NCBI GenBank assembly: GCA_965206075.1
Contig: CBDBIS010000001.1
Span: forward strand, 104,274 to 168,273
Direction of reading: 5' to 3'
DNA: 64,000 nucleotides
Source: Alphaproteobacteria bacterium
GTDB lineage: Bacteria; Pseudomonadota; Alphaproteobacteria; Bin95
Numbering within the stretch: position 1 is the first letter of the stretch; each line of letters starts with the position of its first letter. This document shows, piece by piece, positions 6,087 to 23,804 of this stretch. The position numbers and the translations under genes were made by a program. The notes under the pieces were generated by a model, which worked only from the letters and a program-made list of their open reading frames with translations, was not told the origin of the DNA and searched no databases.

Positions 6087-6116
6087 CGGCGCGAGTCTCT
6101 ATTTCGATATTTCTAA

Positions 6117-6440
6117 CTAAATCGAAATATGCCGATGATGGCACGATCCGTCAAGATGGTCTGCGCAACATTCTTTCAGGAGGAAGCCCAGCGTTTCGTT
6201 CATCGCCTCCGCATTGGCGCGGCAGATGAGCGTGGTGCCGCGCCGCTCCCGGCTCATCAGTCCGCAATCGGCGAGCCGGCGCAGATGGTGCGAGAGCGTG
6301 GAGCGCGGAACGCCGGTGCGCTCGTGGATTTCGTTGACGGCGAGCCCCGCCTCGCCTGCCCGCACCACATGGCGGAACACGGCAAGCCGCGTCTCGTTGC
6401 CGAGCACTTCCAGCCGGACGGCGATTTCACCGAGCGTCAT
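6117..6440 (-). CDS. arsR: ArsR/SmtB-family metalloregulator with Cys/His-rich C-terminus
   Basis: ArsR winged-HTH ('VNEIHERTGVPRSTLSHHLRRLADCGLMSRERRGTTLIC'). C-terminal 'CCADHLDGSCHHRH' metal-binding cluster. Internal ATG chosen because the 5' extension to 6581 has no support. Confidence 0.75.
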   Translation of the reverse strand: MTLGEIAVRLEVLGNETRLAVFRHVVRAGEAGLAVNEIHERTGVPRSTLSHHLRRLADCGLMSRERRGTTLICRANAEAMNETLGFLLKECCADHLDGSCHHRHISI

Positions 6441-6551
6441 GGGGCCGGAGTATAGAGCGGAATCGGGCTCCGTTCGAACCGGGCATGAAAGTTGCCGGAC
6501 CTGCCTTCCCGCCGCCAAGGGTCCTATCCGGTGTATTCCGATTTTCTTCTG

Positions 6552-6569
6552 GAAATTAAGATAAATTTC
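6552..6569. promoter_or_regulatory. perfect palindrome GAAATT-N6-AATTTC in AT-rich arsR upstream region (candidate ArsR operator and/or bidirectional terminator hairpin)
   Basis: Read directly: 'ggaaattaagataaatttca'. Lies 110 nt upstream of the arsR start and ~45 nt upstream of the group II intron 5' end. Confidence 0.35.
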
Positions 6570-6615
6570 AAATATATCCACTTTTTGTTTCGATAGAGGC
6601 TTGACCTGGAGAAAA

Positions 6616-8545: not shown

Positions 8546-8743
8546 TTCTGCTGAGGGAAGCAAGGGCTGGGGCCCGCAAAAAAGCCCCGGCGGGAACGAA
8601 CGGGAGAGGTGCGTCCCTCTGTCTCGCGCGCGCAATCAGGCGTGCGAACCGCGCCGGCGCAAGGCGCGCGCGGGCGGGCACAGGCGCGCACGCAGGATAC
8701 GCGCGCAAAAAGGGTCCCACTCCCGGACCGGCAAGGAGGAACC

Positions 8744-9373
8744 ATGACTGCAACCGATCCCCGCCCCCAACTGGCGGCGAAGCTGGCCGCAGGGCTGGCG
8801 CCGGCCGCCGAAGCCCTCGCCGCAGCCTATGCGGAGGACGTGGACGCCGGGCCGCCGCCGGAGGACGACCGCGCGCTTGCCGAACGCCACCGCGCCGGGC
8901 GTGCCGCGCTCGGCCATCTGCGCCAGCTCCTCGCCGTGCTCGACTGGGCCGCCGCACACCTGCCCGAACCGGAGCCGGAACCCGAAGAGGAAATGTGGGA
9001 CGGTCTCGACGACCCGTTCGAAGAGCCCGACCCTTATGTGCCGAACTATGACGGCAGCGAGGACGAGTTCCACTATGGCGGCGAGGTCTGGGCCGGCAGC
9101 CAGGAGACGCCGGAGTTCCGGGCGTGGCTGGAAAAGATGGAGCGCCGGTTCGGGCCGGTCGCGATAGGCGGGGGCCTCGGCGGCCCGATCGACTGCCATG
9201 TCAGCGGGCGGAAGTTCGTCGGCAAGCTGCCGTCGCCCGAATACACGGCATGGCGCGAAAGGCAGCACCGCCGCACGGAAGCCTCCCTCGCCCGCACTCT
9301 CGACCGCGCCCGAAACGCCCGCCCCGACAGGCAGAAAGCCGGGGCCGCAACCCCGCCGCATGACAAAACATGA
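8744..9373 (+). CDS. hypothetical acidic protein (209 aa)
   Basis: Strong Shine-Dalgarno 'caaggaggaacc' before the ATG at 8744. GC3-rich. No recognised domain ('WLEKMERRFGPVAIGGGLGGPIDCHVSGRKFVGKLPSPEYTAWRERQ'). Confidence 0.55.
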   Translation: MTATDPRPQLAAKLAAGLAPAAEALAAAYAEDVDAGPPPEDDRALAERHRAGRAALGHLRQLLAVLDWAAAHLPEPEPEPEEEMWDGLDDPFEEPDPYVPNYDGSEDEFHYGGEVWAGSQETPEFRAWLEKMERRFGPVAIGGGLGGPIDCHVSGRKFVGKLPSPEYTAWRERQHRRTEASLARTLDRARNARPDRQKAGAATPPHDKT

Positions 9374-9385
9374 CACATCATGACG
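9359..9385 (+). promoter_or_regulatory. CATGACA heptad x3 at 10-bp phasing (array 1 of 5)
   Basis: Read directly: 'catgacaaaa catgacacat catgacg'. Confidence 0.5.
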
Positions 9386-9554
9386 CTTCCGTGGAGGGGG
9401 TCCCCGCCTTCGAGCGTGTGAAGGAATCGGATTTGTCGGGTTTTGCGCTCACGGTTCGCGCCCATCCCGTCGCCCCGGAATGCCAATCCGCCGCCCGCAG
9501 CTCTCTCAATCCGGCAGTCCGCAAGCGGGAGGGCAGCGCCCGGATGGGGCGGCT

Positions 9555-9578
9555 ATGCCGAGAGACGACGCAGGGCAT
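9555..9578. promoter_or_regulatory. palindrome ATGCC-N14-GGCAT in duplicated promoter module (left copy)
   Basis: Read directly: 'atgccgagagacgacgcagggcat'. Conserved in the right-hand copy at 19858-19881. Confidence 0.45.
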
Positions 9579-9597
9579 AACTTTCGCGCATGCGGAA

Positions 9598-9624
9598 CAT
9601 GACATCGCATGACATTCCATGACA
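9598..9624 (+). promoter_or_regulatory. CATGACA heptad x3 at 10-bp phasing (array 2 of 5), ~80 nt upstream of regulator gene
   Basis: Read directly: 'catgacatcg catgacattc catgacacat'. Confidence 0.5.
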
Positions 9625-9705
9625 CATCGCAAGGGGGCTGGCGGCGCCATCGCATTGCCCCTGCCGTAGTCCGGCTATGGAACCGTCGGTATCGACCCGT
9701 CAACA

Positions 9706-10620
9706 ATGGTATTAATCCCGGAAACCATGGCCCAGGACGCTCTCGAAGAAGCCGGCGGCGGGCAGCCGCCCTACCTCACGACGAAGGAGGTGGCGGCGCT
9801 TCTGCGCGTGCGCGAACGCAAAGTGTACGACCTTGCCGCCGCTGGCGGGATTCCGCACCGGCGGATCACCGGCAAGCTGCTCTTCCCGCGCACGGAGATC
9901 CTGGCGTGGATCGAGGGCGGCGGCGATGCCGCGTCCCCGGAGCGGCCGGAGGTGTTGACCGGCTCTCACGACCCGCTCCTCGACTGGGCCGTGCGCGAGT
10001 CCGGCTCAGGCCTGGCGACGCTCTGGAACGGCAGCCTCGACGGCCTGGATTCCTTCGCCGGCGGCCGCGCGGCGCTTGCCGGGCTGCACATCCCGGAAGA
10101 AACGGACTGGAACGTCCGAACGGTGGCCGCGCGAGGCTTGCGCGGATCCGTGCTGATCGCCTGGGCCGGGCGGGCGCGCGGGCTTGTGCTCTCGGAAGCC
10201 ATGCGCGACCGGGTGCGCTGCATGTCCGACCTAAGGGGCAGGCGGGTCGTCATGCGCCAGCCGGGGGCGGGCGCGGCGGCGCTCTTCGAGGCGCTGCTCA
10301 CGAAGGAAGGGCTGACGGCCTCGGACCTCGTCCCCTCGGCGGAGCTGGCGCGGACCGAGAGCGACGCCGCAGCAGCGGTCGCGGCGGGAGAAGCGGATGC
10401 GGCCCCCGGTATCGAGGCGATGGCGCGGCAGTTCCATCTGCCGTTCCTGCCGCTGGTCAGCGAGCGGTTCGACCTGCTGATCGACCGGCGGGCCTATTTC
10501 ACCGGGCGGGTGCAGGCGCTTGTAGCCTTCGCGCGCGGCGGCGCCTTTCGGCGCAAGGCCGCCGCGATGGGCGGCTACGACCTGTCGGAGGCCGGGTCGG
10601 TGCGCTGGCTTTCCCCCTGA
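9706..10620 (+). CDS. HTH_17 (excisionase/MerR-type) + PBP-like domain protein; putative molybdate/tungstate-responsive transcriptional regulator
   Basis: N-terminal HTH ('YLTTKEVAALLRVRERKVYDLAAAGGIPHRRITGKLLFPRTEILAWIE') fused to a periplasmic-binding-protein-like domain. Located in the Mo/W transporter cluster. Confidence 0.65.
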   Translation: MVLIPETMAQDALEEAGGGQPPYLTTKEVAALLRVRERKVYDLAAAGGIPHRRITGKLLFPRTEILAWIEGGGDAASPERPEVLTGSHDPLLDWAVRESGSGLATLWNGSLDGLDSFAGGRAALAGLHIPEETDWNVRTVAARGLRGSVLIAWAGRARGLVLSEAMRDRVRCMSDLRGRRVVMRQPGAGAAALFEALLTKEGLTASDLVPSAELARTESDAAAAVAAGEADAAPGIEAMARQFHLPFLPLVSERFDLLIDRRAYFTGRVQALVAFARGGAFRRKAAAMGGYDLSEAGSVRWLSP

Positions 10621-11390
10621 CGGGCGAGCGACGGCACGCAGACCGTCCTGCCGTCGGCGAGGCGCTCCACCCGGACATCGACCCCGTAAACGGCGGACAG
10701 CGCCTCTTCGGTGAGGGCCGCGCCGGGCGCGCCGGTCGCCCTCACGCGCCCCTCGTGAAGCAGGGCGACATCGGTGCCGACGGCGAAGGCGTGGTCGGGA
10801 TCGTGGGTCGAGAGGACGACCGTGAGACCGTCCGACGCCAGCCCCGCGATCTCCCGCAGCACCAGCGCCTGGTTGCCGAAGTCGAGGCTGGCGGTCGGCT
10901 CGTCCATGATGAGCGCTGGCGTTTCCTGCGCGAGCGCACGGGCGACCAGCACGAGCTGGCGCTGGCCGCCGGAGAGGCGGGTGTAGTCGGCCTCCGCCAG
11001 ATCGCCGATCTGCAGGCGCTCCAGCGCGGCGCGGGCTGCCTCGCGGTCGGCCTCGCCCGGCTGGGCGAACAGCCCGAGCCTTGCCGTCCGGCCCATCAGC
11101 ACGACCTCGAAGGCGGACCAGGCGAAGGGCGGCGTATGCGCCTGCGGCACGTAGGCGACGCGGCGCGCGATCTCCGCGCGGGAAAGGCGGTCGAGCGGCC
11201 GGCCCTCCAGCAGCACCTGTCCGCCCCGCGCCGGAATGAGGCCGAGCTGCGTCCTGAACAGCGTGGTCTTGCCGGAGCCGTTGGGGCCGAGCAGGCAGAG
11301 CACCGCGCCCGGCCCGGCGGCGAGCGTGATGCCGGACCCGACCTCGTGCCCCGGATAGCCGATCGCGAGCTCGCGGGTTTCGACGGTCAT
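10575..11390 (-). CDS. ABC transporter ATP-binding protein (FecE/BtuD-type)
   Basis: Walker A 'GPNGSGKTTL', signature 'LSGGQRQLVLVARAL', Walker B 'LIMDEPT'. Start ATG overlaps the permease stop (ATGA). Confidence 0.85.
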   Translation of the reverse strand: MTVETRELAIGYPGHEVGSGITLAAGPGAVLCLLGPNGSGKTTLFRTQLGLIPARGGQVLLEGRPLDRLSRAEIARRVAYVPQAHTPPFAWSAFEVVLMGRTARLGLFAQPGEADREAARAALERLQIGDLAEADYTRLSGGQRQLVLVARALAQETPALIMDEPTASLDFGNQALVLREIAGLASDGLTVVLSTHDPDHAFAVGTDVALLHEGRVRATGAPGAALTEEALSAVYGVDVRVERLADGRTVCVPSLARQGESQRTDPASDRS

Positions 11391-12421
11391 GCCCATGCGC
11401 GCCGCCCCCGTGCGAGCAGCCAGAGGAAGAAGGGCGCGCCCACCACGGCCGTCAGGATGCCGAGCGGCACCTCCGCGGCCGAAATCGTGCGCGCGAGCGT
11501 ATCGACCGCCAGCATGTATCCGGCGCCGAGCAGGGCGGCGGCGGGCAGCAGCCGGCCGAAGCCGGGGCCGACGAGCATCCGGGCGATATGCGGAATGACC
11601 AGCCCGACCCAGCCGACGACGCCCGCGACCGCCACGACGCTCGCCGTGATGAGCGTGGCGCAGAGGATGACGACGAGGCGGAGCCGCCCGGCCTCGACGC
11701 CGAGCGCGCGCGCCTCCTCGTCGCCGAGCGCCAGCACATTGATCCGCCAGCGCAGCAGGACCAGCGGCAGGAGCCCGGCGGCCACGACCGGCGCGGCCGG
11801 GACGAGGTCCTCCGTCTTCACCCCGGCGAGGCTGCCGAGCAGCCAGAAGGTGATGGCGGGGAGCTGGTCGTACGGGTCGGCGAGGACCTTGAGCAGCGAG
11901 GTCGCCGCGCCGGCGAGCGCGCCGACCACCACACCCGCCAGGACGAGAATCAGCGTGCGGTCGCCGGTCTTCACCGCCGCGGCGACGAAACCGACGAGAG
12001 CGACGGCGCCGAGCCCGCCAGCGAATCCCAGGAGCTGGATCGCCGCGACCGGGAACGAAAGGAAGATGCCGAGCACCGCGCCGAGGCCCGCCCCGGCGGA
12101 CACGCCGAGAATGTCGGGCGACACGAGCGGGTTGCGGAAGATCGTCTGGTAGCATGCGCCCGCCGCCGCCAAGGCCGCGCCGACCAGCAGCGAGGCCGCG
12201 ACCCTTGGCAGGCGGATCGCCAGCAGCACGGTTTCCGCCCGGCCGGCGCTCTCGCCGCCCGTCAGCACCGAGACTGCCTCGACGAACCCGAGCGGATAGG
12301 GCCCGACCAGGAGCGCGGCGAAGCTGCCGAGGACCAGCGCGCCCGCGAGCCAGAGCGCCGCTCCGGCTCCCGTATCCCGGCGCTTGCGGATGGACTTCAG
12401 GGCGCGCGTCCCTTTGTCCAT
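11387..12421 (-). CDS. ABC transporter permease (FecCD/BtuC family)
   Basis: About 10 TM helices with FecCD-type motifs ('LLVGAALAAAGACYQTIFRNPLVSPDILGVSAGAGLG', 'VGWVGLVIPHIARMLVG'). Start at 'MDKGTRALKS', trimmed from the fused ORF 11387..13441. Confidence 0.8.
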   Translation of the reverse strand: MDKGTRALKSIRKRRDTGAGAALWLAGALVLGSFAALLVGPYPLGFVEAVSVLTGGESAGRAETVLLAIRLPRVAASLLVGAALAAAGACYQTIFRNPLVSPDILGVSAGAGLGAVLGIFLSFPVAAIQLLGFAGGLGAVALVGFVAAAVKTGDRTLILVLAGVVVGALAGAATSLLKVLADPYDQLPAITFWLLGSLAGVKTEDLVPAAPVVAAGLLPLVLLRWRINVLALGDEEARALGVEAGRLRLVVILCATLITASVVAVAGVVGWVGLVIPHIARMLVGPGFGRLLPAAALLGAGYMLAVDTLARTISAAEVPLGILTAVVGAPFFLWLLARGRRAWA

Positions 12422-13434
12422 TCGAGGAGCCGGTCGAGCTCCGCCGCGTCGAGATCGACATGGTACCAGAGCTTGTAGAAGGCGCGGGTTTCGGCGCGCA
12501 GGTCGCCTGGCCACAGGTCCGGATAGAAGAGCCCGGCAAGCCATTTCAGGCCCATCATGCGGTTGATGGAGGGCGGCCGGTCGATCCAGCCGAACGGCGC
12601 GGTCGGCGAGAGATAGACCCGGCCCCGGCGGACCGCCGCAATCCCCTGCCAGAGCGGGTCCCGCCAGACCCGGTCGTAGAAGGTCCGGTCCCAGGTGACG
12701 ATGGTGTCGGGATCGGCGACGATCACCTGTTCCGGCGAGGCCCGCACGAGCCCGTAACGGCCGGGCACGTCGGCCACGTTCCGTCCGCCGGCAAGCTCGA
12801 TGATCTCCGTGTTGATGGAGCCCTTCAGCCCGGTCTCCAGACCGTCCGGGCCGCGGGCGAGATAGACGCGCGGGCGCTCGTTCACGGGCACGGCGCCGAG
12901 TGCGGCCCGGAGTTCCGCGAACGTCGCCTCCACGTCCGCCGCCAGCGCCTCGCCCCGGTCGGGGACGCCGAGCGCGTCGCCCAGAAGACGGAGCGAGGCC
13001 GCCGTTTCCGCGAAGCGCCCGTTGACAAGGATATAGGGAATGTCGGTCTGGTCCTGAACGCGGTTTGCGAGGTCGATATAGGTGTCCCGCACGGAGCCGA
13101 AATCGACGATGAGGTCCGGCTCGAGCGCGATCACCCGTTCGAGGTTCGCGTCGCCGCCGCGCCCGGTGAGCCGCCCCGTTTCGGGAAGGTCGCGCCAGGG
13201 TTCGGCGATATAGGGCTTCTCGTAGTCGCGAAGCCTGCGCGGCCAGCCGAGCAGCGCTGCGGGCTTCAGCGCATAGATCAGGATCGAGGCGGGCGGCCCG
13301 GCTGCGAAGACGCGCTCCACCCGGTCCGGAATTTCCACGACCCTTCCGGCGGAGTCCCGGACGGTGCGCGCCTCGCCCGGCATGGCAAGGCCGGCGAACG
13401 CAACCGCCAGCAGGGACAGCAAGAGCCGCGTCAT
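12397..13434 (-). CDS. ABC transporter periplasmic substrate-binding protein (class III, FecB/BtuF-like)
   Basis: Signal peptide 'MTRLLLSLLAVAFAGLAMPGEA' followed by a cluster-A/class III SBP fold ('ALEPDLIVDFG'). Confidence 0.75.
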   Translation of the reverse strand: MTRLLLSLLAVAFAGLAMPGEARTVRDSAGRVVEIPDRVERVFAAGPPASILIYALKPAALLGWPRRLRDYEKPYIAEPWRDLPETGRLTGRGGDANLERVIALEPDLIVDFGSVRDTYIDLANRVQDQTDIPYILVNGRFAETAASLRLLGDALGVPDRGEALAADVEATFAELRAALGAVPVNERPRVYLARGPDGLETGLKGSINTEIIELAGGRNVADVPGRYGLVRASPEQVIVADPDTIVTWDRTFYDRVWRDPLWQGIAAVRRGRVYLSPTAPFGWIDRPPSINRMMGLKWLAGLFYPDLWPGDLRAETRAFYKLWYHVDLDAAELDRLLEWTKGRAP

Positions 13435-13473
13435 GCCGCAATCCTTACTCCAGCGAAAGCCCGCAGCCGACCG

Positions 13474-14289
13474 TCAGCCGCCGGCATTCGGGAAGAAGAG
13501 CTGCCGGCCGTCCACCCGGTACGACGCGATGGCCGCCTGCCCTTCTTTAGAGAGCACCCAATCGACGAACCGCCGGCCGAAGCCCGCCTTCACATTGGGA
13601 TGCCGCTCCGGATTGACCAGAACGATGCCGTATTGGTTGAACAGCCTGGGGTCGCCCTCGACAAGGATCCGATGGCCGTTCCTGTTGCCGAAGTTTGTCC
13701 AGCTCGCGCGGTCCGTCATCGCATAGGCATCCATGCCGGCGGCAGTGTTGAGGGTGGCACCCATGCCGGAACCCGTTTCGCGGTACCAGCTGCCGGAAGC
13801 CGCGGTTACGTCGATGTCGGCCTGCACCCAGAGCCGGAGCTCCGCCTTGTGCGTGCCGCTGTCGTCGCCGCGCGAGACGAATGGCGTACGGATGGCGGCA
13901 ATCCTCGCCAAGGCGGCCACGGCGTCATCCATGCCCGCGACGCCGGCGGGGTCGGATGCCGGCCCGACGATGATGAAGTCGTTGTACATGACGTCCGCCC
14001 GCCGGACACCGTGGCCGTCGGCCACAAATTTCTCTTCTGCGGGTCTGGCGTGCACGAGGAGCACGTCGCCATCGCCGTTCGCGGCATTCCTGATCGCCTG
14101 GCCGCTGCCGACGGCGACGACCCGCACCTCGATGCCGGTCTTCAGCCGAAAGATCGGCAGGATATGGTCGTAGAGGCCCGAGTTCTGGATCGAGGTCGTG
14201 GACTGGACGACAATGAATCGGTCTGCCGCCGCCGGTCCGAGGGCGATGAGGACGGCGGCAGCGACACCGAGAAGCGCGTTTCCGACCAT
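13474..14289 (-). CDS. tupA: tungstate/molybdate ABC transporter substrate-binding protein TupA
   Basis: TupA signature 'TTSIQNSGL' after a signal peptide. PBP-like_2 fold. Confidence 0.8.
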   Translation of the reverse strand: MVGNALLGVAAAVLIALGPAAADRFIVVQSTTSIQNSGLYDHILPIFRLKTGIEVRVVAVGSGQAIRNAANGDGDVLLVHARPAEEKFVADGHGVRRADVMYNDFIIVGPASDPAGVAGMDDAVAALARIAAIRTPFVSRGDDSGTHKAELRLWVQADIDVTAASGSWYRETGSGMGATLNTAAGMDAYAMTDRASWTNFGNRNGHRILVEGDPRLFNQYGIVLVNPERHPNVKAGFGRRFVDWVLSKEGQAAIASYRVDGRQLFFPNAGG

Positions 14290-14306
14290 GCTATGTCCGC
14301 CCGGCC

Positions 14307-15104
14307 TCAGCCTGCCGCGCGGTGCGGGGGTTCGAGAAAGAGCCGGCCCTCGAGCCAGGCGCGGACCGCGTCCGAGCGAGGCGCATCCAGCACATTCGAA
14401 ACGGGCCCGGTTTCCACCGTCCGGCCGGCATGCAGGAAGACCAGGTAGTCGCCGAGGCGCCGGGCCTGCCCGATGTCGTGGGTGACCAGCACGATGGCGA
14501 CGCCGCTCTCATGGGCTTCCCCGACCAGCCGTTCGATGGCATGGGTCGAACCCGGATCGAGGCTGGCCGTCGGTTCATCGAGGAACAACACGCGCGGCCG
14601 GCAGGCAAGCGCGCGCACGACCGCAAGCCGCTGCTGCTCGCCGCCGGAAAGCACGCGCGCCGGCCGGTTCGCCAGATTGCCGAGCCGGGAGCGTTCCATC
14701 GCCTCGGCCTCCCGCGCCGCACGCTCCGGACCCGAAAGACCGCGAACCGCAAGCGCGAAGCGGAGATTGGCGAGCACGGAGCGGCGCAGCAGCACCGGGC
14801 GCTGGAATACCATCGCCTGCCCGAGCCGGCCTTCGCGGTCGAGGGGCCGCCCCTGCCAGAGCACTTCACCGGCGGTCGGGCGAATCAGGCCGTGCAGCAG
14901 GCGCAGCAACAGGCTCTTGCCGGCGCCGTTGGCGCCCATCACCACCGTCCGCCTGCCGGGACGGATGTCGATATCGATCCCGTCGATAAGCCGCTTGCCG
15001 CCGGCATCGAAGCAGAGTGCGCTGGCCCGAAGCAAAGCCTCCGAGGGCGTATCCGCCTCGATTGCCGGCGTCGGCGAAGCCATATGGAATGCCGCCTCAG
15101 GCAT
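14307..15104 (-). CDS. tupC: tungstate ABC transporter ATP-binding protein TupC
   Basis: Walker A 'GANGAGKSLLL', signature 'LSGGEQQRLAVVRAL', Walker B 'LFLDEPT'. Alternative start 21 nt downstream at 15083. Confidence 0.75.
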   Translation of the reverse strand: MPEAAFHMASPTPAIEADTPSEALLRASALCFDAGGKRLIDGIDIDIRPGRRTVVMGANGAGKSLLLRLLHGLIRPTAGEVLWQGRPLDREGRLGQAMVFQRPVLLRRSVLANLRFALAVRGLSGPERAAREAEAMERSRLGNLANRPARVLSGGEQQRLAVVRALACRPRVLFLDEPTASLDPGSTHAIERLVGEAHESGVAIVLVTHDIGQARRLGDYLVFLHAGRTVETGPVSNVLDAPRSDAVRAWLEGRLFLEPPHRAAG

Positions 15105-15804
15105 AGGCCATCCGAACCGCCGAGGCCCGGAGCGCCATCACGGCCCCGTTTACGGCTACGGCGATGACGAGCAGCACGACACCGAGCGCGAGCGCGAGTT
15201 CCAGGTTGCCCTTCGAGGTCTCCAGCGCAATCGTCGTGGTCATCACGCGGGTTACATGGTTGATGTTGCCGCCGACGATGATGACAGCGCCTACCTCCGC
15301 CACCGCGCGGCCGAAGCCGGCGAGCGCCACGGTGAGCAGGCTGTAGCGGGCGTCCCACAACAGTGCGGCGACACGGTCGAGGGGACCGACGCCGAGGGAA
15401 TCGAATTGCTCGGCATATTCGCGGTAACAGTCCTCCACGACCTGCCGGCTCAGCGCCGCGACGATGGGCGTGACGAGGATCGTCTGGGCGATAATCATCG
15501 CTGCCGGGGTGTAGAGCAGCTGCAGCGGCCCGAGCGGTCCGGCGGCGGACAACATCAGGTAGGCGATCAGCCCCACCACTACGGGCGGCAGGCCCATCAG
15601 CGAATTCAGGATGACGATGACTGCCATCCGGCCGGGAAACCGGAAAGCGCCTACCGCAGCGCCGAGCGGCAGGCCGATGACGCAGGAGATGGCGACAGCC
15701 GTCAGCGTCACCCGCAGCGACAGGCCGACAATCTCGATGAGATCGGAGTCCCAGGAGAGGATCAGGCCCACAGCCTCAGCGAGTATCAGCCAGAAACCTT
15801 CCAC
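15097..15804 (-). CDS. tupB: tungstate ABC transporter permease TupB
   Basis: ABC transporter permease (TupB) membrane domain in the C-terminal ~236 aa of ORF 15097..17112. GTG start with 'gagggagg' Shine-Dalgarno 9 nt upstream. Confidence 0.7.
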   Translation of the reverse strand: MEGFWLILAEAVGLILSWDSDLIEIVGLSLRVTLTAVAISCVIGLPLGAAVGAFRFPGRMAVIVILNSLMGLPPVVVGLIAYLMLSAAGPLGPLQLLYTPAAMIIAQTILVTPIVAALSRQVVEDCYREYAEQFDSLGVGPLDRVAALLWDARYSLLTVALAGFGRAVAEVGAVIIVGGNINHVTRVMTTTIALETSKGNLELALALGVVLLVIAVAVNGAVMALRASAVRMAYA

Positions 15805-15945
15805 TCTGCAATTCCTCCCTCGATTCGGAAGAAAAGCACAAAAATCAACCTGAATCGACAAAAAGAGCAGAAGTTTCGGTGCGGAAATCGGTTCGGATTG
15901 CGCCGCCGGTCCGGGCTTTCGCAGGGCGCTTCCGGACTGTAGGCT

Positions 15946-17124
15946 TTGGGGCAAGACAGGCACGAAAACAACAAGATAGCCATGATGCCTGGGTTCGGAG
16001 GACAAGGCGCGGGACGTCTGGAGCGCCTGCGGTCGGCAAGCGGGGAGCTGTCGGGCGCTTTCGGCGATCTGGGCACATTCCTGCCCTATGTCGTGGCGGC
16101 GGTGGGCGCGGGCATTCTCGCGCCGACGCCGGTCTTCGCAGGCTTCGCGGCCGGCTATGTCCTCGTCGCCGCCGTTTACCGCCTGCCCATATCCGTCCAG
16201 CCGATGAAGGCGTTGGGCGCAGTCATTATTGCCGGCGGCCTCACGGCCGTGGAAACCGCCTGGGCAGGCGGCATCGTCGGCGCGGTCCTGCTCCTGCTTG
16301 CGGCCGTCCCGTCGTTCGAAAGGGCGACCCGCGCGATTCCCCGATCGGTAGTCACCGGCCTCCAGGCCGGGCTCGGCCTCATGCTGGGAACGGTGGCCTT
16401 CGGCCTGATGAGCAGCGACTGGGTCATGGCACTGGCCGCCCTTGCCGCGCTGTCGCTCGCCTTTCTCCTGCCGAGGGGGCCGTGGGTCCCGCTTGTCGTC
16501 GTAGGCGCCGTGCTGCTGGTTCCCCACACCGGGCCGCCGATTCCCCCGGCAATGCCCGCCGGGGGAATCGACTCCATCCATGCCGTGCTCTCGGGAGTGC
16601 TCGCGCAACTGCCGCTGACCCTGCTCAATGCCGTGGTGGTCGCCGCGGCGGTTGCCCGTTCGCTCTATCCGGACCGGGCCGCGCGCGTGAGCGAACGGAA
16701 GCTCGCGGCCACCAACGGGCTGATGAACCTCCTGCTTGCCCCGCTGGGCGCCATGCCGATGTGCCACGGCGCCGGCGGCATCGCCGCCCATCGCAGGTTC
16801 GGCGCGCGCGGCATGGGTGCGCCGCTGATTATGGCCGCCTTCTGCTGCACGGTCGTTGCGATAGGACCGGAGATCGTCGGTCTGCTCATGTCGGTCCCGC
16901 CGGCGGTCGTCGGCGCGCTGCTCATCTATGCGGCAGTCGATCTGATCTTCACGCCAAGACTGCTCGACGCGCGACCCGACTGCCGGCCGGTCATCGCCGC
17001 CGCCGCGCTTGCCACGGTCTTCCTGGGTGCGCTCGCAGGCCTGATTACGGGCCTGGCAGCGGAGGGCCTGCGCGTCTATGTCCGGCGCAGGCATCGGTCC
17101 GGTTCCACGCACAGCAGCGGCTAG
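15946..17124 (+). CDS. MOT1-family (MFS-like) molybdate transporter
   Basis: Matches both conserved MOT1 motifs: 'ELSGAFGDLGTFLPYVVA ... SVQPMKALGAVII' and 'LGAMPMCHGAGGIAAHRRFGARG'. About 390 aa with ~10 TM segments. Start codon uncertain within the first 15 codons. Confidence 0.7.
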   Translation: MGQDRHENNKIAMMPGFGGQGAGRLERLRSASGELSGAFGDLGTFLPYVVAAVGAGILAPTPVFAGFAAGYVLVAAVYRLPISVQPMKALGAVIIAGGLTAVETAWAGGIVGAVLLLLAAVPSFERATRAIPRSVVTGLQAGLGLMLGTVAFGLMSSDWVMALAALAALSLAFLLPRGPWVPLVVVGAVLLVPHTGPPIPPAMPAGGIDSIHAVLSGVLAQLPLTLLNAVVVAAAVARSLYPDRAARVSERKLAATNGLMNLLLAPLGAMPMCHGAGGIAAHRRFGARGMGAPLIMAAFCCTVVAIGPEIVGLLMSVPPAVVGALLIYAAVDLIFTPRLLDARPDCRPVIAAAALATVFLGALAGLITGLAAEGLRVYVRRRHRSGSTHSSG

Positions 17125-17143
17125 CTCGCCCGGAACGGACGGC

Positions 17144-18229
17144 TCAGGCGCCGCCTACTTCTTCCGGTGCGATGGCGACGGTCTTGATGACGGCGTGGCA
17201 ATGCACGCCCGCCGCCAGCCCCAGCGCCTCGGTCGAACGGCGGGTCGAGCGGGAGAGGATCGTGCCGGCCTTCGTGCGAAGCGACACGATGGCTCCCGGC
17301 CCCTCTCCCGCCCGGACCGACTCGACCGTGCCGGGCAGGATGTTCAGCGCCGACAGGCCCTCCGGTTCCTGGCGGGACAACAGCACTTCATGCGCCGCGA
17401 TCCGGACCCTGATCCGGCTGCCCGGCGGATGCGGGACCCTCGGCAGGAACAGGCGTACGCCGCCCGCATCGATCTCCGACAGGCCGTCGGCATGGTGCGT
17501 GACGACCGCCGCCTCCAGCACCGCGCCCGCACCGCGCGCGCCGAGCGGCGTGACTGTCGGGTCGCCCAGCACCTCGACCGCAGGCCCCTGGCGCACCACG
17601 CGCCCGTCCTGCAGGGCGATCACGGTGGTCGCGAGGCGCGCGACCTCCGCCGCCGAGTGGCTCACATAGAGGACCGGCACCGACACCTCGTCCCGAAGCC
17701 GTTCGAAATAGGGCAGGATCTCGGCCTTCCGCGCCTCGTCCAGGGACGCCAGCGGCTCGTCCGCCAGGATGAGCCTGGGACTCGCGAGCAGCGCCCGCCC
17801 GATCGCAATCCGCTGTTTCTCGCCGCTCGACAGCGCTCCGGGGCGGCGGCCCAGCAGGTGGCCGATGCCGAGCATGTCCACGATGCGTCCCATGTCCTCG
17901 CGCGGCCCGTTCTTCGGCGCGAACCAGCGGCCGTACTGCAGGTTCTGCCTCACGGTAAGGTGCGGAAACAGCCGCCCCTCCTGGAAAATGTAGCCGAGCC
18001 GGCGCCGGTGGGCGGGAAGCCAGGCGCCGCGCTCCGTATCGAACAGCACCCAGCCGTCGGCAACCGCGCGCCCGGCCTGCGGCCTCAACAGGCCTGCGAC
18101 GGCGTTGACGGTCGTCGTCTTGCCGGAGCCGGAGCGGCCGAAGAGCACGGTGACGCCCGGCGGCGCCTCGAACGAAACATCGAGTTCGAAGCCGGGGAAG
18201 GCGTGGCGGATGGCGACGGAAAGCGTCAT
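17144..18229 (-). CDS. modC: molybdate ABC transporter ATP-binding protein ModC (with C-terminal TOBE/Mop domain)
   Basis: Walker A 'GRSGSGKTT', signature 'LSSGEKQRIAIGRAL', Walker B 'LILADEPL', plus a C-terminal Mop-like domain. Start 'MTLSVAIRHAF' overlaps the modB stop. Upstream 520 codons of the ORF are read-through. Confidence 0.85.
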   Translation of the reverse strand: MTLSVAIRHAFPGFELDVSFEAPPGVTVLFGRSGSGKTTTVNAVAGLLRPQAGRAVADGWVLFDTERGAWLPAHRRRLGYIFQEGRLFPHLTVRQNLQYGRWFAPKNGPREDMGRIVDMLGIGHLLGRRPGALSSGEKQRIAIGRALLASPRLILADEPLASLDEARKAEILPYFERLRDEVSVPVLYVSHSAAEVARLATTVIALQDGRVVRQGPAVEVLGDPTVTPLGARGAGAVLEAAVVTHHADGLSEIDAGGVRLFLPRVPHPPGSRIRVRIAAHEVLLSRQEPEGLSALNILPGTVESVRAGEGPGAIVSLRTKAGTILSRSTRRSTEALGLAAGVHCHAVIKTVAIAPEEVGGA

Positions 18230-18918
18230 GCGCCGGCCACCCTTCTTGCCACGCGCCGCGCGACGAGCTCGGAAAGCAGCAGCGCCGCCATGGACACCGC
18301 AACGGCGATTGCCACGAGGCGGAGCGCGGAGGCCTCGCCGCCGGGCACCTGGAGGAAGGCGTAGATGGCCGTCGGCAGGGTCTGGGTCTGGCCGGGAATG
18401 TTGGAGACGAAGGTGATCGTCGCTCCGAACTCTCCCATCGCCTTGGCGAACGCCAGGATCGTGCCGGCGAGAATTCCCGGCAGGACGAGCGGCAGGGTCA
18501 CGGTCGCGAAGACCCATGGGCCGGAGGCGCCGAGCGTCGCGCTCGCCTGCTCCAGTTTCGGATCCACCGCCTCGATGGAAAGCCGGATGGCGCGAACCAT
18601 GAGGGGAAAGGCCATGACGGCCGCCGCCAGCGCCGCGCCCGTCCAGCGGAAGGCAAAGACGATGCCGACCTCCTGCAGAAGACCGCCGAGAGGCCCTTGC
18701 GTCCCGAAGGTCAGGAGCAGCAGGTAGCCCGTCGCCACCGGGGGCAGGATGAGGGGCAGATGCACCGCGCCGTTCAGCAGCTGCCTGCCGGGGAAGCGCC
18801 AGCGCGCCAGCGCATAGGCGGTCAACACCCCGAGCGGCAGGCTCGCAAGCGTTGCCCAGAACGCGACGCGCAGCGAGAGCGCGACGGCCCGCCATTCCTC
18901 GGGGCTCAGCCAGTCCAT
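18226..18918 (-). CDS. modB: molybdate ABC transporter permease ModB
   Basis: ABC transporter permease (ModB) membrane domain, 230 aa. Confidence 0.85.
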   Translation of the reverse strand: MDWLSPEEWRAVALSLRVAFWATLASLPLGVLTAYALARWRFPGRQLLNGAVHLPLILPPVATGYLLLLTFGTQGPLGGLLQEVGIVFAFRWTGAALAAAVMAFPLMVRAIRLSIEAVDPKLEQASATLGASGPWVFATVTLPLVLPGILAGTILAFAKAMGEFGATITFVSNIPGQTQTLPTAIYAFLQVPGGEASALRLVAIAVAVSMAALLLSELVARRVARRVAGA

Positions 18919-18927
18919 GCCGCAATT

Positions 18928-19716
18928 CTACTCGAAGGCGGTGACAAAGCCTTGCCGCTCGAACGCCTTTCGCGCGGCCGGCCCGCGGAGCCAGGAGAGA
19001 AAGCGCGCGTTGAGCGGGTTGCGGCTCGCGGCCACGGCGGCGGCGGGATAGACGATGGGCGGGTGGCTGCGCGCGGGAAAAGCGCCCACCACGGTCACCT
19101 TGTCGTCGGCTGCGGCGTCGGTTGCATAGACGATCCCGAGCGGCGCCTCGCCGGACGAGACCAGCGCCAGCGCCGCGCGGACATTGTCCGCCTGGGCCAC
19201 CTTCGACCGGACAGCTTCCCAGACTCCCAGCGCGCGAAGCGCAGCCTTCCCGTAAATCCCGGCGGGCACGGCGTCCACGAACGTCATGGCAAGGCGGCCT
19301 TCGCCCAGCATGCCTGCGATATCCAGGCCCGGCCGGATTTCCACGGGGCGCGCGTCCCGCCCGTGTGCGATCAGCACGATGGTGTTTCTCAGCAGGTCGA
19401 AGCGGCTGTCCGGTTCGATGAAGCCGTCCCGCTCCAGCGCGTCCATCCAATCCGGGTTCGCGGAAATGAAAATGTCCGCGGGCGCGCCGTGCTGGATCTG
19501 GCGGGCAAGCGCGGAGGAGCCGGCAAGGGAGACCGTGACGGCATGTCCGGCTTCCTGCTCGAACCCGGCGGCAATCTCGTCCATCGCATTCTTCAGGCTG
19601 GCCGCGGCGAAGACCGTGATCGCGTCCGCGCCGAAGCCGGGCCGTGCGAGGCCCAGGCAGAGCCCGAGACCGGCGGCGAACGCGATGAGGCAGCGGCGGG
19701 CAGGCGAAAACGGCAA
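18928..19716 (-). CDS. modA: molybdate ABC transporter periplasmic binding protein ModA
   Basis: ModA fold ('ITVFAAASLKNAMDEIAAGF', 'ADIFISANPDWMD', 'GIVYATDA'). Start trimmed to a TTG with AGGAAAAG Shine-Dalgarno that gives a 30-aa signal peptide. The longer ORF start 'MTFHDTS' at 19827 is an artefact of the heptad repeats. Confidence 0.8.
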   Translation of the reverse strand: MPFSPARRCLIAFAAGLGLCLGLARPGFGADAITVFAAASLKNAMDEIAAGFEQEAGHAVTVSLAGSSALARQIQHGAPADIFISANPDWMDALERDGFIEPDSRFDLLRNTIVLIAHGRDARPVEIRPGLDIAGMLGEGRLAMTFVDAVPAGIYGKAALRALGVWEAVRSKVAQADNVRAALALVSSGEAPLGIVYATDAAADDKVTVVGAFPARSHPPIVYPAAAVAASRNPLNARFLSWLRGPAARKAFERQGFVTAFE

Positions 19717-19811
19717 GGCGGCTTTTCCTGGCGGTCCATGCGTTCGGGCGGTCCGACCAATAGGCCCTTTTCCGCCGGCCCGGCAAGGTTCGCCCGGAGA
19801 GGCCCGCGATG

Positions 19812-19838
19812 TGTCATGGAATGTCATGCGATGTCATG
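19812..19838 (-). promoter_or_regulatory. CATGACA heptad x3 (array 3 of 5), ~100 nt upstream of modA on the modA sense strand
   Basis: Read on + strand as 'tgtcatggaa tgtcatgcga tgtcatg'. Confidence 0.5.
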
Positions 19839-19857
19839 GTCCCGATGTGCGAGAGTC

Positions 19858-19881
19858 ATGCCCTGCGTCGTCTCTTGGCAT
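19858..19881. promoter_or_regulatory. palindrome ATGCC-N14-GGCAT (right copy) upstream of modA
   Basis: Read directly: 'atgccctgcgtcgtctcttggcat'. Confidence 0.45.
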
Positions 19882-20252
19882 AGCTGTCCCATCCGCAAAC
19901 CCGCTCCCGCTTGCGGGCTGCCGGATTGACGGAGTTGCCGGCGTTGGCTGAGCGCGAACGTCTTCCCACCCGTCACCCCTACCGGATTCACACATCTGCG
20001 TTTGCCCGCTTCGCGTTGCATGTTCCCCACGGTCGCCCCGGCCCCCGAGCCGGGGCCCAGCCTCGGCTCTCGCGGCAGCTTCAGCGGTCGGTCCCGCTCT
20101 TCACCGGCCGCGGCGGCATCGGGAGGCATGGATGGACCCCGGCTCGGGGGCCGGGGTGACGAAAGGGCGCGGAGCCGGCGTGGCCGAACCGGCAGGCGCC
20201 GGATACGGGCCGGAACGAGATGTGCGCATGCGGGAGCCCCACTCCACCGGAT

Positions 20253-20279
20253 TGTCATGATGTGTCATGTTTTGTCATG
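20253..20279 (-). promoter_or_regulatory. CATGACA heptad x3 (array 4 of 5)
   Basis: Read on + strand as 'tgtcatgatg tgtcatgttt tgtcatg'. Confidence 0.45.
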
Positions 20280-20783
20280 CGGCTTGGAGCAGGCCCCGGC
20301 GGTTCGCCCTATTCTTCACCGGCCGCGGCGGCATCGGGAGGCATGGATGGACCCCGGCTCGGGGGCCTGCCGGATTCACACATCTGCGCCCGGTGACGTG
20401 GCGTTGCATAACCCCGACCGCCTGCCCTCGCGGAAGCGGGGGTCGCCCCGGCCCCCATGACGGAGAGGAGGGAAACGCGCCCCCGGAAGACCCTCTCCCT
20501 CGGGGAGAGGGCAGGGTGAGGGGCCGCTTCCGGCTGCGGCGGCGGGAGGCAGGGCTGGGTCCCCGCCTTCGCGGGGACGATGAAACGGGGACAAAAGCCC
20601 GCGTAGCAAGACCGACAGGCGCACCGCACACGGGCCGAAATGAGATGTGTGCATCCGGTAGGCTCGGGGGCCGGGGTGACGATGGGGGAGGCCGCCATCG
20701 GTTCCTATCGACGACTGCGGGTATAACGCCTCTTGCGTCACCCCGGACGAAGGGTTGCGCCTGCATCCCGGACAGTTGCGGAA

Positions 20784-20807
20784 TGTCATGTTCTGTCATG
20801 TTCGCCA
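20784..20807 (-). promoter_or_regulatory. CATGACA heptad x2-3 (array 5 of 5), overlapping the recombinase stop codon
   Basis: Read on + strand as 'tgtcatgttc tgtcatgttc gccatg'. Confidence 0.4.
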
Positions 20808-22696: not shown

Positions 22697-22709
22697 GGTC
22701 CGGAATCTC

Positions 22710-23012: not shown

Positions 23013-23177
23013 GGAGAAGGCATTTGAGGGCCGGCGCGAGCCCTGTCAAACGCGGTATGCCGGGGATTTCCTTTGCAATATCATAGCCTTGCGTACCCTT
23101 GTCGGTCCCTGCGGCGGCAGGCGCGGACAGGCGTACCCCGAGCGATATTTCGTCGCACAGCATGGTCGCGGCGCCTT

Positions 23178-23513: not shown

Positions 23514-23804
23514 TCCATGCGGCCTCCCTTCCGGCGACCCCGAGCGGACCGCGAAATGCGCGCGTGGAACAGCCACCATCCTTCCGGGCCTGCATGGTCG
23601 CACATATAGCCCAATGGGCTATTGGTGTAAAGCCTGGAGGCGCAGTCCGAAGTCTGCAAGGGCTTCGGCGAAGCCGGACCACGGTCATTTGCCGGATCCG
23701 GGTTCATGAAAGCTGCCCCGCGCCACGCTGTCGGCTGCTCCATGCGGCGATGCAATGACCGCGCCGCTCGCGGCAGCCGGCCATCGATGGACCGTTCCCG
23801 GTCC

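What the first reader, a model, noticed from the sequence alone, without database searches (positions are those of the whole stretch)
10575..13434. FecBCD-type (class III SBP) ABC transporter embedded in and co-transcribed with tupBCA
Class III/cluster A binding-protein transporters normally carry siderophores, haem, cobalamin or metal chelates, not oxyanions. Here the SBP, permease and ATPase lie head-to-tail on the same strand directly downstream of tupBCA with overlapping stop and start codons, inside a Mo/W-dedicated island. The substrate could be a Mo/W-chelate (metallophore) or cobalamin, which would be a route not covered by Mod/Tup/Wtp.
Basis: inference. Interest (0 to 1): 0.55.

Follow-up and report, generated by a model that had tools for sequence, protein, structure and literature searches.

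The report
MolBC-A-like molybdate/tungstate ABC importer beside tupBCA
The three genes are real and probably encode a second, BtuCD-style ABC importer for molybdenum or tungsten, a distant relative of the Haemophilus MolBC-A system, so this is a new member of a known kind of transporter, not a new uptake route.

Summary
On the minus strand, tupB-tupC-tupA-like genes are followed by a class III binding protein (13434-12397), a FecCD permease (12421-11387) and an ATPase (11396-10575). A 39-bp gap separates tupA from the binding protein, and the three genes overlap each other.

The link to Mo/W is real. In 80 related loci from different species, 61 carry tup-like, MOT1-like, Mop/TOBE, ModA-like or HTH-PBP_like regulator genes within 10 kb, in several different arrangements.

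The premise that such transporters never carry oxyanions is wrong. H. influenzae MolBC-A is a type II importer whose class III protein MolA binds molybdate and tungstate. MolB and MolC are the best solved matches of the permease and ATPase. MolA is the closest characterised relative of the binding protein. Relatives' operons carry a homologue of the fourth gene of Haemophilus-type mol operons, a ModA-like protein.

No cobalamin or Moco riboswitch, TonB-dependent receptor or chelator-synthesis gene was found nearby.

The caveat is that the cleft loops conserved within this family differ from those of the MolA family, so the exact Mo/W species transported is unproven. Some distant relatives do sit with TonB systems.

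Verdict: new member of a known kind, moderate interest.

The parts
12397..13434 (-). Class III (cluster A) periplasmic binding protein, MolA-like, 345 aa, with an N-terminal signal peptide (MTRLLLSLLAVAFAGLAMPGEA|RTV).
   Evidence: Pfam Peripla_BP_2 1e-19. A family profile against PDB gives 4PAG 1e-59, 4OVK 5e-30, MolA (3PSA) 3e-22 and YiuA 6e-18. Foldseek gives the same order. Homologues are 70-93% identical across Alphaproteobacteria.
11387..12421 (-). FecCD-type (type II ABC importer) permease, MolB-like, 344 aa.
   Evidence: Pfam FecCD 1e-85. The best solved match is HI1471 (MolB, 2NQ2) at 4e-61. It is 43-50% identical to Haemophilus-like and Pectobacterium MolB.
10575..11396 (-). ABC ATPase, MolC-like, 273 aa. 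An alternative ATG at 11390 gives an ATGA overlap with the permease stop.
   Evidence: ABC_tran 2e-26. The best solved match is HI1470 (MolC) at 3e-37. It is 34-44% identical to MolC.
13474..14289 (-). TupA-like oxyanion-binding protein of the type I transporter. It ends 39 bp upstream of the class III SBP.
   Evidence: PBP_like_2 4e-41. NCBIfam TupA scores 199 bits, below the cut-off of 400. STTS replaces the TTTS motif. R118 and T124 equivalents are present in FVSRGDDSGT (sequence, compared with PMC5517513).
14307..15104 (-). TupC-like ABC ATPase.
   Evidence: ABC_tran 3e-30.
15097..15804 (-). TupB-like type I permease. It is the first gene of the six-gene array (GTG start, GGGAGG ribosome-binding site).
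   Evidence: NCBIfam ABC_perm1 247 bits (cut-off 100) and TupB 170 bits (cut-off 320). Junctions.
15836..15858 (-). Conserved block TCGATTCAGGTTGATTTTTGTGC, about 30 bp (25-35 bp) upstream of the tupB ribosome-binding site. It is a candidate promoter or operator of the array.
   Evidence: Conserved in 12 loci including Stappia. It occurs once per locus and only in this position.
9706..10620 (+). HTH_17 + PBP_like regulator, convergent with the ATPase, with a 46-bp 3' overlap.
   Evidence: Pfam PBP_like 3e-43 and HTH_17 2e-14. It sits beside the ABC genes in 29 of 80 loci.
15946..17124 (+). MOT1-family MFS (putative molybdate transporter), divergent from tupB.
   Evidence: Pfam MFS_MOT1 8e-38. 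Present in 33 of 80 related loci.
17144..19827 (-). modABC: modA 19827-18928, modB 18918-18226, modC about 18232-17144 with a TOBE domain.
   Evidence: SBP_bac_11 2e-54 and ABC_tran + TOBE. BPD_transp_1.
9359..9624 (+). Arrays of CATGACA heptamers at 10-bp spacing (9359/9369 and 9598/9608/9618), upstream of the regulator gene.
   Evidence: 13 of the 15 heptamers in the 64-kb window lie in five clusters at the two ends of the island. The same arrays lie upstream of modA (five loci) and of the regulator (two loci) in other species.
19812..20800 (-). Matching CATGACA arrays (19812-19838, 20253-20279, 20784-20800), upstream of modA.

Best explanation
The three genes encode a type II (BtuCD-fold) ABC importer of the MolBC-A kind, dedicated to group-6 metal uptake.

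Proposed mechanism, inferred and not shown:
- The exported class III binding protein captures molybdate and/or tungstate in the periplasm.
- It docks on the FecCD permease dimer. The two Glu residues invariant across all three related SBP families, E99 and E235, lie in the motifs that hold the docking glutamates of BtuF.
- The ATPase dimer drives import.
- The genes are most likely transcribed as the distal half of one six-gene unit, tupB-tupC-tupA-molA-like-molB-like-molC-like, starting in the tupB/MOT1 intergenic region.
- The cell would therefore make a type I (Tup-like) and a type II (Mol-like) importer for the same metals together, next to modABC, a MOT1-type permease and a PBP_like-domain regulator.

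Shown: gene identities, homology ranking and conserved synteny.
Inferred: substrate, co-transcription and regulation.
For: 1. Homology.
- The permease's best solved relative is MolB at 4e-61.
- The ATPase's best is MolC at 3e-37.
- MolA is the closest characterised relative of the SBP by profile (3e-22, full length) and by fold (rank 4, after two chains of 4PAG and 4OVK, which are uncharacterised structural-genomics entries).

2. Literature. MolA binds molybdate and tungstate, and MolBC-A takes up molybdate in vivo (PMC4031551, PMC4245157).

3. Synteny. In 80 loci from different species the neighbours are tupA 37, tupB 32, MOT1 33, PBP_like regulator 29, Mop-like TOBE 29 and an orphan ModA-like gene directly upstream of the SBP 29. 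At least one is present in 61 of 80, in several rearranged layouts.

4. The orphan ModA-like gene. It is the specific homologue of the fourth gene of the mol operon in Haemophilus-like and Pectobacterium contigs. Identity is 27-36%, E 1e-50 to 3e-29, against 5e-06 to 3e-08 for the window's ModA. The Haemophilus locus is also joined to type I transporter genes, modD-salX-cysU (PMC3928620).

5. More distant relatives. The 4PAG protein sits next to a ModE-type (HTH_1+TOBE) regulator, FdhD and a formate-dehydrogenase-like enzyme. The Desulfuromonas locus ends with an HTH+PBP_like regulator.

6. No cobalamin or Moco riboswitch. No TonB-dependent receptor or TonB/ExbBD in the window or the 80 loci.

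7. Operon structure. Gaps are short or overlapping, no terminator-like site lies between tupA and the SBP, and the conserved upstream block lies only before tupB.
Against: - The SBP is only 24-28% identical to MolA.
- Nearly all cleft-lining loops that are invariant within this family (AGPPAS, TGRLTGRGG, DFGSVRDTY, GLETGLKGSINTE, TWD, PFGWIDRPPS) differ from the residues invariant in the MolA family. The ligand-binding chemistry is therefore not the same.
- MolA's own contact residues could not be retrieved, because the paper is not held.
- The margin over iron-complex binders is modest: YiuA 6e-18 against MolA 3e-22.
- MolA has about 100 uM affinity, which would be useless at the low Mo and W concentrations expected in seawater (own knowledge). 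This family is largely marine, so it must differ in affinity or in substrate form.
- 19 of 80 loci show no Mo/W neighbour.
- Sources name the homologues 'iron ABC transporter substrate-binding protein', which is a generic name.
- No transcript or binding data exist.
Confidence: 0.6

Rival explanations
1. The transporter imports Mo or W bound to an organic chelator (a metallophore), or another complexed or bulky Mo/W species, instead of the free oxyanion.
For: - Type II importers usually carry bulky chelates.
- The family-invariant cleft loops differ from those of MolA and are rich in Arg, Lys, Thr and Ser.
- Distant members of the same SBP clade are encoded with a TonB-dependent receptor, ExbB-ExbD-TonB and a radical-SAM protein, next to Mo-type regulators (Sulfurospirillum and Desulfuromonas).
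- The next characterised relatives after MolA are YiuA (iron-catecholate fragments) and CeuE (Ni-His).
Against: - No TonB-dependent receptor, TonB/ExbBD or chelator-biosynthesis gene lies in the 64-kb window or in any of the 80 related loci.
- The recurrent partners are oxyanion binders: a MolD-like ModA homologue, Mop/TOBE and TupA-like.
- The characterised relative MolA binds the free oxyanions (PMC4031551).
Confidence: 0.2
2. The system imports a different tetrahedral oxyanion, such as vanadate, chromate, arsenate or selenate. The 'Tup-like' and 'MOT1-like' neighbours share that substrate instead of Mo/W.
For: - TupA-like and TupB-like proteins score below NCBIfam's equivalog cut-offs (199 of 400 and 170 of 320). 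The TTTS motif reads STTS.
- One stand-alone locus lies near chromate (ChrA/ChrB) and arsenic-type genes.
- The window has an ArsR-type regulator and an ArsP permease about 4 kb away.
Against: - Canonical modABC, with a TOBE domain on ModC, lies in the same island.
- Mop-type TOBE proteins and PBP_like/ModE-type regulators recur.
- R118 and T124 of TupA are conserved (sequence, PMC5517513).
Confidence: 0.1
3. It is an ordinary iron-siderophore, haem or cobalamin importer that merely lies next to Mo/W genes.
For: - Generic source names read 'iron ABC transporter substrate-binding protein'.
- There are weak NCBIfam hits to BtuF, IsdE, BtuC and FhuB.
- 19 of 80 loci have no Mo/W neighbour.
Against: - All those NCBIfam hits are far below their cut-offs.
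- Synteny with Mo/W genes holds in 61 of 80 loci across rearrangements.
- No cobalamin riboswitch.
- No TonB-dependent receptor nearby.
- Stand-alone loci show no iron or B12 genes either.
Confidence: 0.07

Closest known systems
MolBC-A (molABCD, HI1469-HI1472) of Haemophilus influenzae: a type II ABC importer for molybdate/tungstate with the class III binding protein MolA
   Same: - The same three components: Peripla_BP_2 SBP, FecCD permease and ABC ATPase.
- MolB and MolC are the best solved matches, and MolA is the closest characterised SBP.
- It lies in a molybdenum locus.
- Relatives of the window operon carry the homologue of the fourth mol gene, a ModA-like SBP_bac_11 protein.
- The Haemophilus locus is also adjacent to type I transporter genes, modD-salX-cysU (PMC3928620).
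   Different: - SBP identity is only 24-28%. The family-invariant cleft loops differ.
- Gene order differs. The ModA-like gene lies upstream in relatives and is absent from this window.
- There is no ModD.
- Here the genes sit directly behind tupBCA in one same-strand array.
- Partners not described for Mol recur in relatives: a MOT1-type MFS, a TrmO_N-like protein and an HTH_17+PBP_like regulator.
PDB 4PAG (Sulfurospirillum deleyianum) and 4OVK (Veillonella parvula): uncharacterised structural-genomics class III binding proteins
   Same: They are the closest solved structures (profile E 1e-59 and 5e-30; 4PAG Foldseek TM 0.75-0.80). 4PAG shares the PFxWxDRPPS motif, a PP motif and the C-terminal helical extension. 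The 4PAG gene also sits in a Mo/W context, with a ModE-like regulator, FdhD and a formate-dehydrogenase-like enzyme.
   Different: The 4PAG locus includes a TonB-dependent receptor, ExbBD-TonB and a radical-SAM/SBP fusion protein, all absent here. Other cleft motifs differ (GGWHGNN against GRLTGRGG). No ligand is known.
TupABC, ModABC and WtpABC: type I ABC importers for tungstate/molybdate
   Same: The presumed metals are the same. Tup-like and Mod systems are encoded in the same island.
   Different: The transporter architecture differs. Those use a class II SBP with a BPD_transp_1 or TupB-type 5-6 TM permease. This one uses a class III SBP with a FecCD permease.
BtuFCD, FecBCDE, FhuDBC and HmuTUV: type II importers for cobalamin, ferric citrate, hydroxamates and haem
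   Same: The same fold class for all three subunits. The conserved SBP glutamates (E99, E235) lie in the motifs used for docking in BtuF.
   Different: - All equivalog models score far below their cut-offs.
- No riboswitch and no TonB-dependent receptor.
- Synteny is with Mo/W genes instead.

Membership tests
MolBC-A type II molybdate/tungstate importer | FecCD-fold permease and cognate ATPase homologous to MolB and MolC | tested here: met
   MolB (2NQ2_A) is the best solved hit at 4e-61, ahead of BhuU at 2e-56 and BtuC at 7e-36. MolC is the best at 3e-37. Identity is 43-50% to MolB and 34-44% to MolC. The margin over haem permeases is small, so this shows relatedness, not orthology.
MolBC-A type II molybdate/tungstate importer | Class III SBP closer to MolA than to any other characterised class III SBP | tested here: met
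   The family profile scores MolA at 3e-22 over its full length, YiuA at 6e-18 and BtuF at about 5e-11. MolA is Foldseek rank 4, the first characterised protein in the list.
MolBC-A type II molybdate/tungstate importer | Conservation of MolA's oxyanion-contacting residues | tested here: inconclusive
   MolA's contact residues could not be obtained, because the structure paper is not held. In a three-family alignment, most cleft-loop positions invariant in this family differ from those invariant in the MolA family. Identity of the binding site is therefore unlikely.
MolBC-A type II molybdate/tungstate importer | SBP binds molybdate/tungstate and not sulfate/phosphate | not testable with these tools
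   Needs ITC, DSF or crystallography of the purified protein.
MolBC-A type II molybdate/tungstate importer | Encoded in a molybdenum locus together with an SBP_bac_11 (ModA-like, 'MolD') gene | tested here: met
   The locus context is Mo/W in the window and in 61 of 80 relatives. The MolD-like gene lies directly upstream of the SBP in 29 of 80 relatives and is specifically homologous to the mol-operon gene. It is absent from this window, where the tupA-like gene occupies that position.
BtuFCD cobalamin importer | SBP, permease and ATPase reach the BtuF, BtuC and BtuD equivalog scores, and a cobalamin riboswitch lies upstream | tested here: not met
   BtuF scores 40 bits against 234, BtuC 183-220 against 334-461, and BtuD 124 against 281. 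No Rfam cobalamin riboswitch in 6000-24000, or in 7 related loci.
Fe(III)-siderophore / ferric citrate (FecBCDE, FhuDBC) importers | Equivalog-level similarity, with an associated TonB-dependent receptor or iron-regulated context | tested here: not met
   FecC, FecD and FhuB models score well below their cut-offs. No TonB-dependent receptor or ExbBD/TonB homologue in the window or the 80 loci. Iron-regulator boxes were not searched systematically.
TupABC tungstate importer (the upstream genes) | TupA with a TTTS motif, R118 and T124, and TupB/TupC partners | tested here: inconclusive
   STTS replaces TTTS. R118 and T124 equivalents are present (sequence, PMC5517513). NCBIfam TupA scores 199 of 400 and TupB 170 of 320, both below the equivalog cut-offs. 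The genes are Tup-like, and tungstate selectivity is unproven.

The most novel reading that the evidence does not exclude
This strongly conserved, largely marine branch of the MolA clade may not be a low-affinity molybdate back-up. It may be a high-affinity importer for a special Mo/W species, such as tungstate at picomolar levels or a Mo/W-organic complex. In the related 4PAG-type loci the same SBP clade is coupled to a TonB-dependent receptor and a radical-SAM enzyme. That would be a TonB-energised Mo/W acquisition pathway not described so far.
Probability: 0.2. Interest if true: 0.7.

Novelty: new member of a known kind. Interest (0 to 1): 0.4.

Why it matters
MolBC-A appears in the papers read here only as a low-affinity Haemophilus system. 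No paper on this family was found in the literature searches.

This analysis shows three things:
- A distant but recognisable relative is widespread. 438 species-level genome hits were found, mostly Alphaproteobacteria among the 80 loci examined.
- It is under strong purifying selection, at 70-93% identity across orders.
- It is systematically wired into Mo/W gene neighbourhoods.

The results correct a generic 'iron transporter' annotation and suggest that type II import of group-6 metals is a general strategy. They also single out a protein family whose remodelled binding cleft is worth testing for affinity and for molybdate/tungstate selectivity. The family has culturable hosts, including Tritonibacter, Stappia and Roseovarius. 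Such a test would bear on how marine bacteria obtain tungsten and molybdenum.

Tried and rejected
- **Riboswitches.** No Moco or cobalamin riboswitch in window 6000-24000 at E<=0.1. Only group II intron domains matched. Nothing reached gathering score in 7 related loci.
- **Promoter and terminator scans.** No promoter-like site was found, and terminator-like sites occurred at chance level. This tells nothing about operon ends, except that none lies between tupA and the SBP.
- **MolA ligand residues.** The structure paper (PMID 22078568, PMC3258573) is not held. Other papers give no residue detail.
- **Structure model.** The AlphaFold2 model from a shallow alignment is mediocre. Mean pLDDT is 69, and residues 40-96 of the N-lobe fall below 50. 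It sufficed for a fold ranking.
- **Regulator literature.** Searches for the regulator family (TunR) and for a TonB-dependent Mo/W system found nothing relevant.
- **Shared motifs.** No k-mer of 9 nt or longer is shared between the tupB/MOT1 intergenic region and the modA or regulator upstream regions. The CATGACA operator candidate therefore does not obviously control the tup-mol array.
- **TonB system.** tblastn with TonB-dependent receptor, ExbB, ExbD and TonB queries from the 4PAG-type loci found nothing in the window or the 80 loci.
- **Rejected readings.** BtuF or FecB orthology, and chance adjacency to the Mo/W genes.

Full report
**1. What is there**

The window has about 70% G+C, so raw ORF lists are full of spurious frames. 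Codon-position G+C periodicity and profile searches give the gene map for 9.7-19.8 kb below.

| Coordinates | Strand | Gene |
|---|---|---|
| 9706-10620 | + | HTH_17 + PBP_like regulator |
| 11396/11390-10575 | - | ABC ATPase |
| 12421-11387 | - | FecCD permease (E 1e-85) |
| 13434-12397 | - | Peripla_BP_2 binding protein |
| 14289-13474 | - | TupA-like |
| 15104-14307 | - | TupC-like |
| 15804-15097 | - | TupB-like |
| 15946-17124 | + | MOT1-family MFS |
| 19827-17144 | - | modABC |

The finding's coordinates match the three genes exactly.

Junctions:
- tupB/tupC overlap by 8 bp.
- tupC to tupA is a 17-bp gap.
- tupA to the SBP is a 39-bp gap with a ribosome-binding site.
- SBP/permease overlap by 25 bp.
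- Permease/ATPase share an ATGA overlap.
- The ATPase and the regulator gene converge, with a 46-bp overlap.

The tupA-SBP junction is a short gap, not an overlap. Co-transcription is plausible but unproven. No terminator-like site lies in the gap. The only conserved upstream block, TCGATTY-N-TTTTTRTGY, lies about 30 bp before the tupB ribosome-binding site in 12 loci.

**2. What the proteins are related to**

None of the three reaches any NCBIfam equivalog cut-off for BtuFCD, FecBCDE, FhuDBC, haem or F420 systems.

Against solved structures:
- The permease's best match is HI1471 (MolB) at 4e-61.
- The ATPase's best match is HI1470 (MolC) at 3e-37.
- For the binding protein, a 13-sequence family profile gives 4PAG at 1e-59, 4OVK at 5e-30, MolA (HI1472, 3PSA) at 3e-22 over its full length, YiuA at 6e-18 and BtuF at about 5e-11.
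- A Foldseek search with an AlphaFold2 model (pLDDT 69) gives the same order.

4PAG and 4OVK are uncharacterised structural-genomics entries, so MolA is the closest characterised relative.

MolBC-A of H. influenzae is an established type II ABC importer. Its class III binding protein binds molybdate and tungstate, and it contributes to molybdate uptake in vivo (PMC4031551, PMC4245157).

**3. Synteny**

The binding protein belongs to a very conserved family. It is 70-93% identical across Stappia, Roseibium, Thalassobaculum, Tritonibacter, Roseovarius, Marivita and a Burkholderiaceae MAG. A scan of one genome per species found 438 relatives, and the best 80 loci were fetched.

tblastn with the window's proteins and with neighbours found in relatives gave these counts out of 80 loci:

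| Neighbour | Loci |
|---|---|
| tupA-like | 37 |
| tupB-like | 32 |
| MOT1-like | 33 |
| HTH-PBP_like regulator | 29 |
| 69-aa Mop/TOBE protein | 29 |
| Orphan ModA-like (SBP_bac_11) gene directly upstream of the class III SBP | 29 |
| TrmO_N-like protein | 21 |
| modABC | 7-8 |

At least one Mo/W-type neighbour is present in 61 of 80 loci.

The layouts differ:
- The window type is modABC / MOT1 / tupBCA-SBP-permease-ATPase / regulator.
- Stappia has tupBCA-ModA-like-SBP...
- Roseovarius, Marivita and Primorskyibacter have tupBCA and the regulator divergent upstream, with Mop and MOT1 downstream.
- Tritonibacter has TrmO_N-ModA-like-SBP-permease-ATPase / Mop / MOT1 and no tup genes.
- Thalassobaculum has only the ModA-like gene.

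Linkage that survives rearrangement argues for function, not inheritance. The stand-alone loci show no iron or cobalamin genes.

**4. The link to the archetype is deeper than fold**

- In Haemophilus-like and Pectobacterium contigs the mol operon is MolA-MolB-MolC followed by an SBP_bac_11 gene. In the Haemophilus-like contigs it is preceded by ModD.
- That fourth gene is specifically homologous to the orphan ModA-like gene of the alphaproteobacterial loci. Identity is 27-36%, E 1e-50 to 3e-29, against 5e-06 to 3e-08 for the window's true ModA.
- In H. influenzae Rd the cluster is described as modA (HI1469), molABC (HI1470-72) and modD-salX-cysU (HI1473-75). A type II importer is therefore physically joined to type I transporter genes there too (PMC3928620).
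- The wider clade is also Mo/W-linked. The 4PAG gene of Sulfurospirillum lies behind a ModE-type regulator (HTH_1+TOBE), near FdhD and a formate-dehydrogenase-like enzyme.
- A Desulfuromonas locus holds two such SBPs. One of them is 33-35% identical to the window-family SBPs of the related loci. The locus ends with an HTH+PBP_like regulator.

**5. Tests of the rivals**

- Cobalamin: no cobalamin riboswitch in the window region or in seven representative loci.
- Iron or chelate: no TonB-dependent receptor, ExbB/ExbD/TonB or biosynthetic genes in the 64-kb window or the 80 loci (and gene tables).
- The chelate idea keeps some life for two reasons.
  - In a three-family alignment, the cleft-lining loops invariant in this family (AGPPAS, TGRLTGRGG, DFGSVRDTY, GLETGLKGSINTE, TWD, PFGWIDRPPS) differ at most positions from those invariant in the MolA family. 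The putative docking glutamates E99 and E235 are shared by all.
  - The 4PAG-type loci do contain a TonB-dependent receptor, TonB-ExbBD and a radical-SAM/SBP fusion.
- MolA's contact residues could not be retrieved. Identity of the binding site is therefore untested and looks unlikely.
- From my own knowledge, a 100-uM MolA-like affinity would be useless at seawater Mo (about 100 nM) or W (pM). This branch probably differs in affinity, or in the form of the metal it takes.

**6. Mechanism proposed**

Gene identities, homology and synteny are shown. The rest is inferred.

A promoter in the 141-bp tupB/MOT1 intergenic region drives tupB-tupC-tupA-molA-like-molB-like-molC-like. The Tup-like type I system and the Mol-like type II system both take up group-6 oxyanions from the periplasm. 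The TupA-like protein keeps R118 and T124 but has STTS for TTTS (PMC5517513).

The HTH_17+PBP_like protein probably senses the oxyanion. From memory it resembles the TunR family of tungstate-responsive regulators. That was not verified here.

Arrays of CATGACA heptamers at 10-bp spacing lie upstream of modA and of the regulator gene. They are conserved at the same places in other species (upstream of modA in five loci and of the regulator in two), so they are candidate operators. The tupB promoter lacks them, so regulation of the tup-mol array is open.

**7. Verdict**

The system is best filed as a divergent member of the known MolBC-A kind, not a new route.

- Confidence that it serves Mo/W in some chemical form is about 0.8.
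- Confidence that the substrate is the free oxyanion is about 0.6.
- Interest is moderate (0.4). The result generalises a system treated in the papers read here only as a Haemophilus one, corrects 'iron transporter' annotations, and points to a testable family with a remodelled pocket.

Noticed in passing
window 8570-9630 and 19806-21042: The whole Mo/W island is bracketed by inverted repeats about 1 kb long, in three colinear blocks at 82-91% identity. The outermost block (about 8600-8750) also flanks the equivalent island on both sides in another species (L002: 2396-2518 and 14069-14223). It could be a mobile or invertible cassette, or duplicated regulatory flanks.
   Followed up: partly
window 9359-9375, 9598-9624, 19812-19838, 20253-20279, 20784-20800: 13 of the 15 CATGACA heptamers in the 64-kb window lie in arrays of 2-3 copies at exact 10-bp spacing, upstream of the regulator gene and of modA. 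The same arrays occur upstream of modA in L002, L003, L005, L006 and L030, and upstream of the regulator in L002 and L003. This is a probable operator. The 299-aa modA ORF probably starts too early, because its first codons lie inside the array.
   Followed up: partly
window 6753-8545: A complete group II intron (Rfam D1-D4 domains and domain V/VI) with its reverse transcriptase/maturase ORF at 7076-8464. It is inserted just outside the left inverted-repeat arm.
   Followed up: partly
window 20786-22696 (-): A large serine recombinase (Resolvase + Recombinase + Zn_ribbon_recom). Its 3' end runs into the right inverted-repeat arm. An Xre/MqsA-like HTH gene follows at 23178-23603.
   Followed up: partly
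L083 8713-9198, L084 8706-9197, and 21 of 80 loci: A stand-alone TrmO_N-domain protein of about 165 aa, with a conserved CPRQGRxDGPEC motif. It is the first gene of many SBP-permease-ATPase operons in Rhodobacterales. A SAM-binding tRNA-methyltransferase-like fold in a Mo/W transport operon has no obvious explanation. It is absent from the window.
   Followed up: partly
L081 9257-9988, L083 9221-10000, L088 10820-11599, L089 10850-11584: The ModA-like (SBP_bac_11) partner of Mol-type operons has a signal peptide in Sedimentitalea. It has no room for one in the Haemophilus-like, Pectobacterium and Thalassobaculum versions, whose starts abut or overlap the preceding gene. It may therefore be cytoplasmic in some lineages and periplasmic in others.
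   Followed up: no
L086 11041-12822 and L087 15915-17735: In Sulfurospirillum and Desulfuromonas, a roughly 600-aa radical-SAM protein is encoded next to the 4PAG-type SBP, a TonB-dependent receptor and ExbBD-TonB, under ModE-type or PBP_like-type regulators. In Sulfurospirillum its C-terminal part is homologous to the class III SBP (29% identity over 224 aa). Its function is unknown.
   Followed up: partly
window 5052-6581 (-): An ArsP-type permease (ArsP_1) and an ArsR/HTH_20 regulator lie about 4 kb from the island, beyond the group II intron. A related stand-alone locus (L090) lies near ChrA/ChrB and an ArsR-LMWPc gene. Oxyanion-handling genes may tend to cluster.
   Followed up: no
window 15836-15858 (-): A conserved AT-rich block, TCGATTCAGGTTGATTTTTGTGC, lies upstream of tupB. 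It is shared with Stappia loci whose surrounding sequence is otherwise unalignable.
   Followed up: partly
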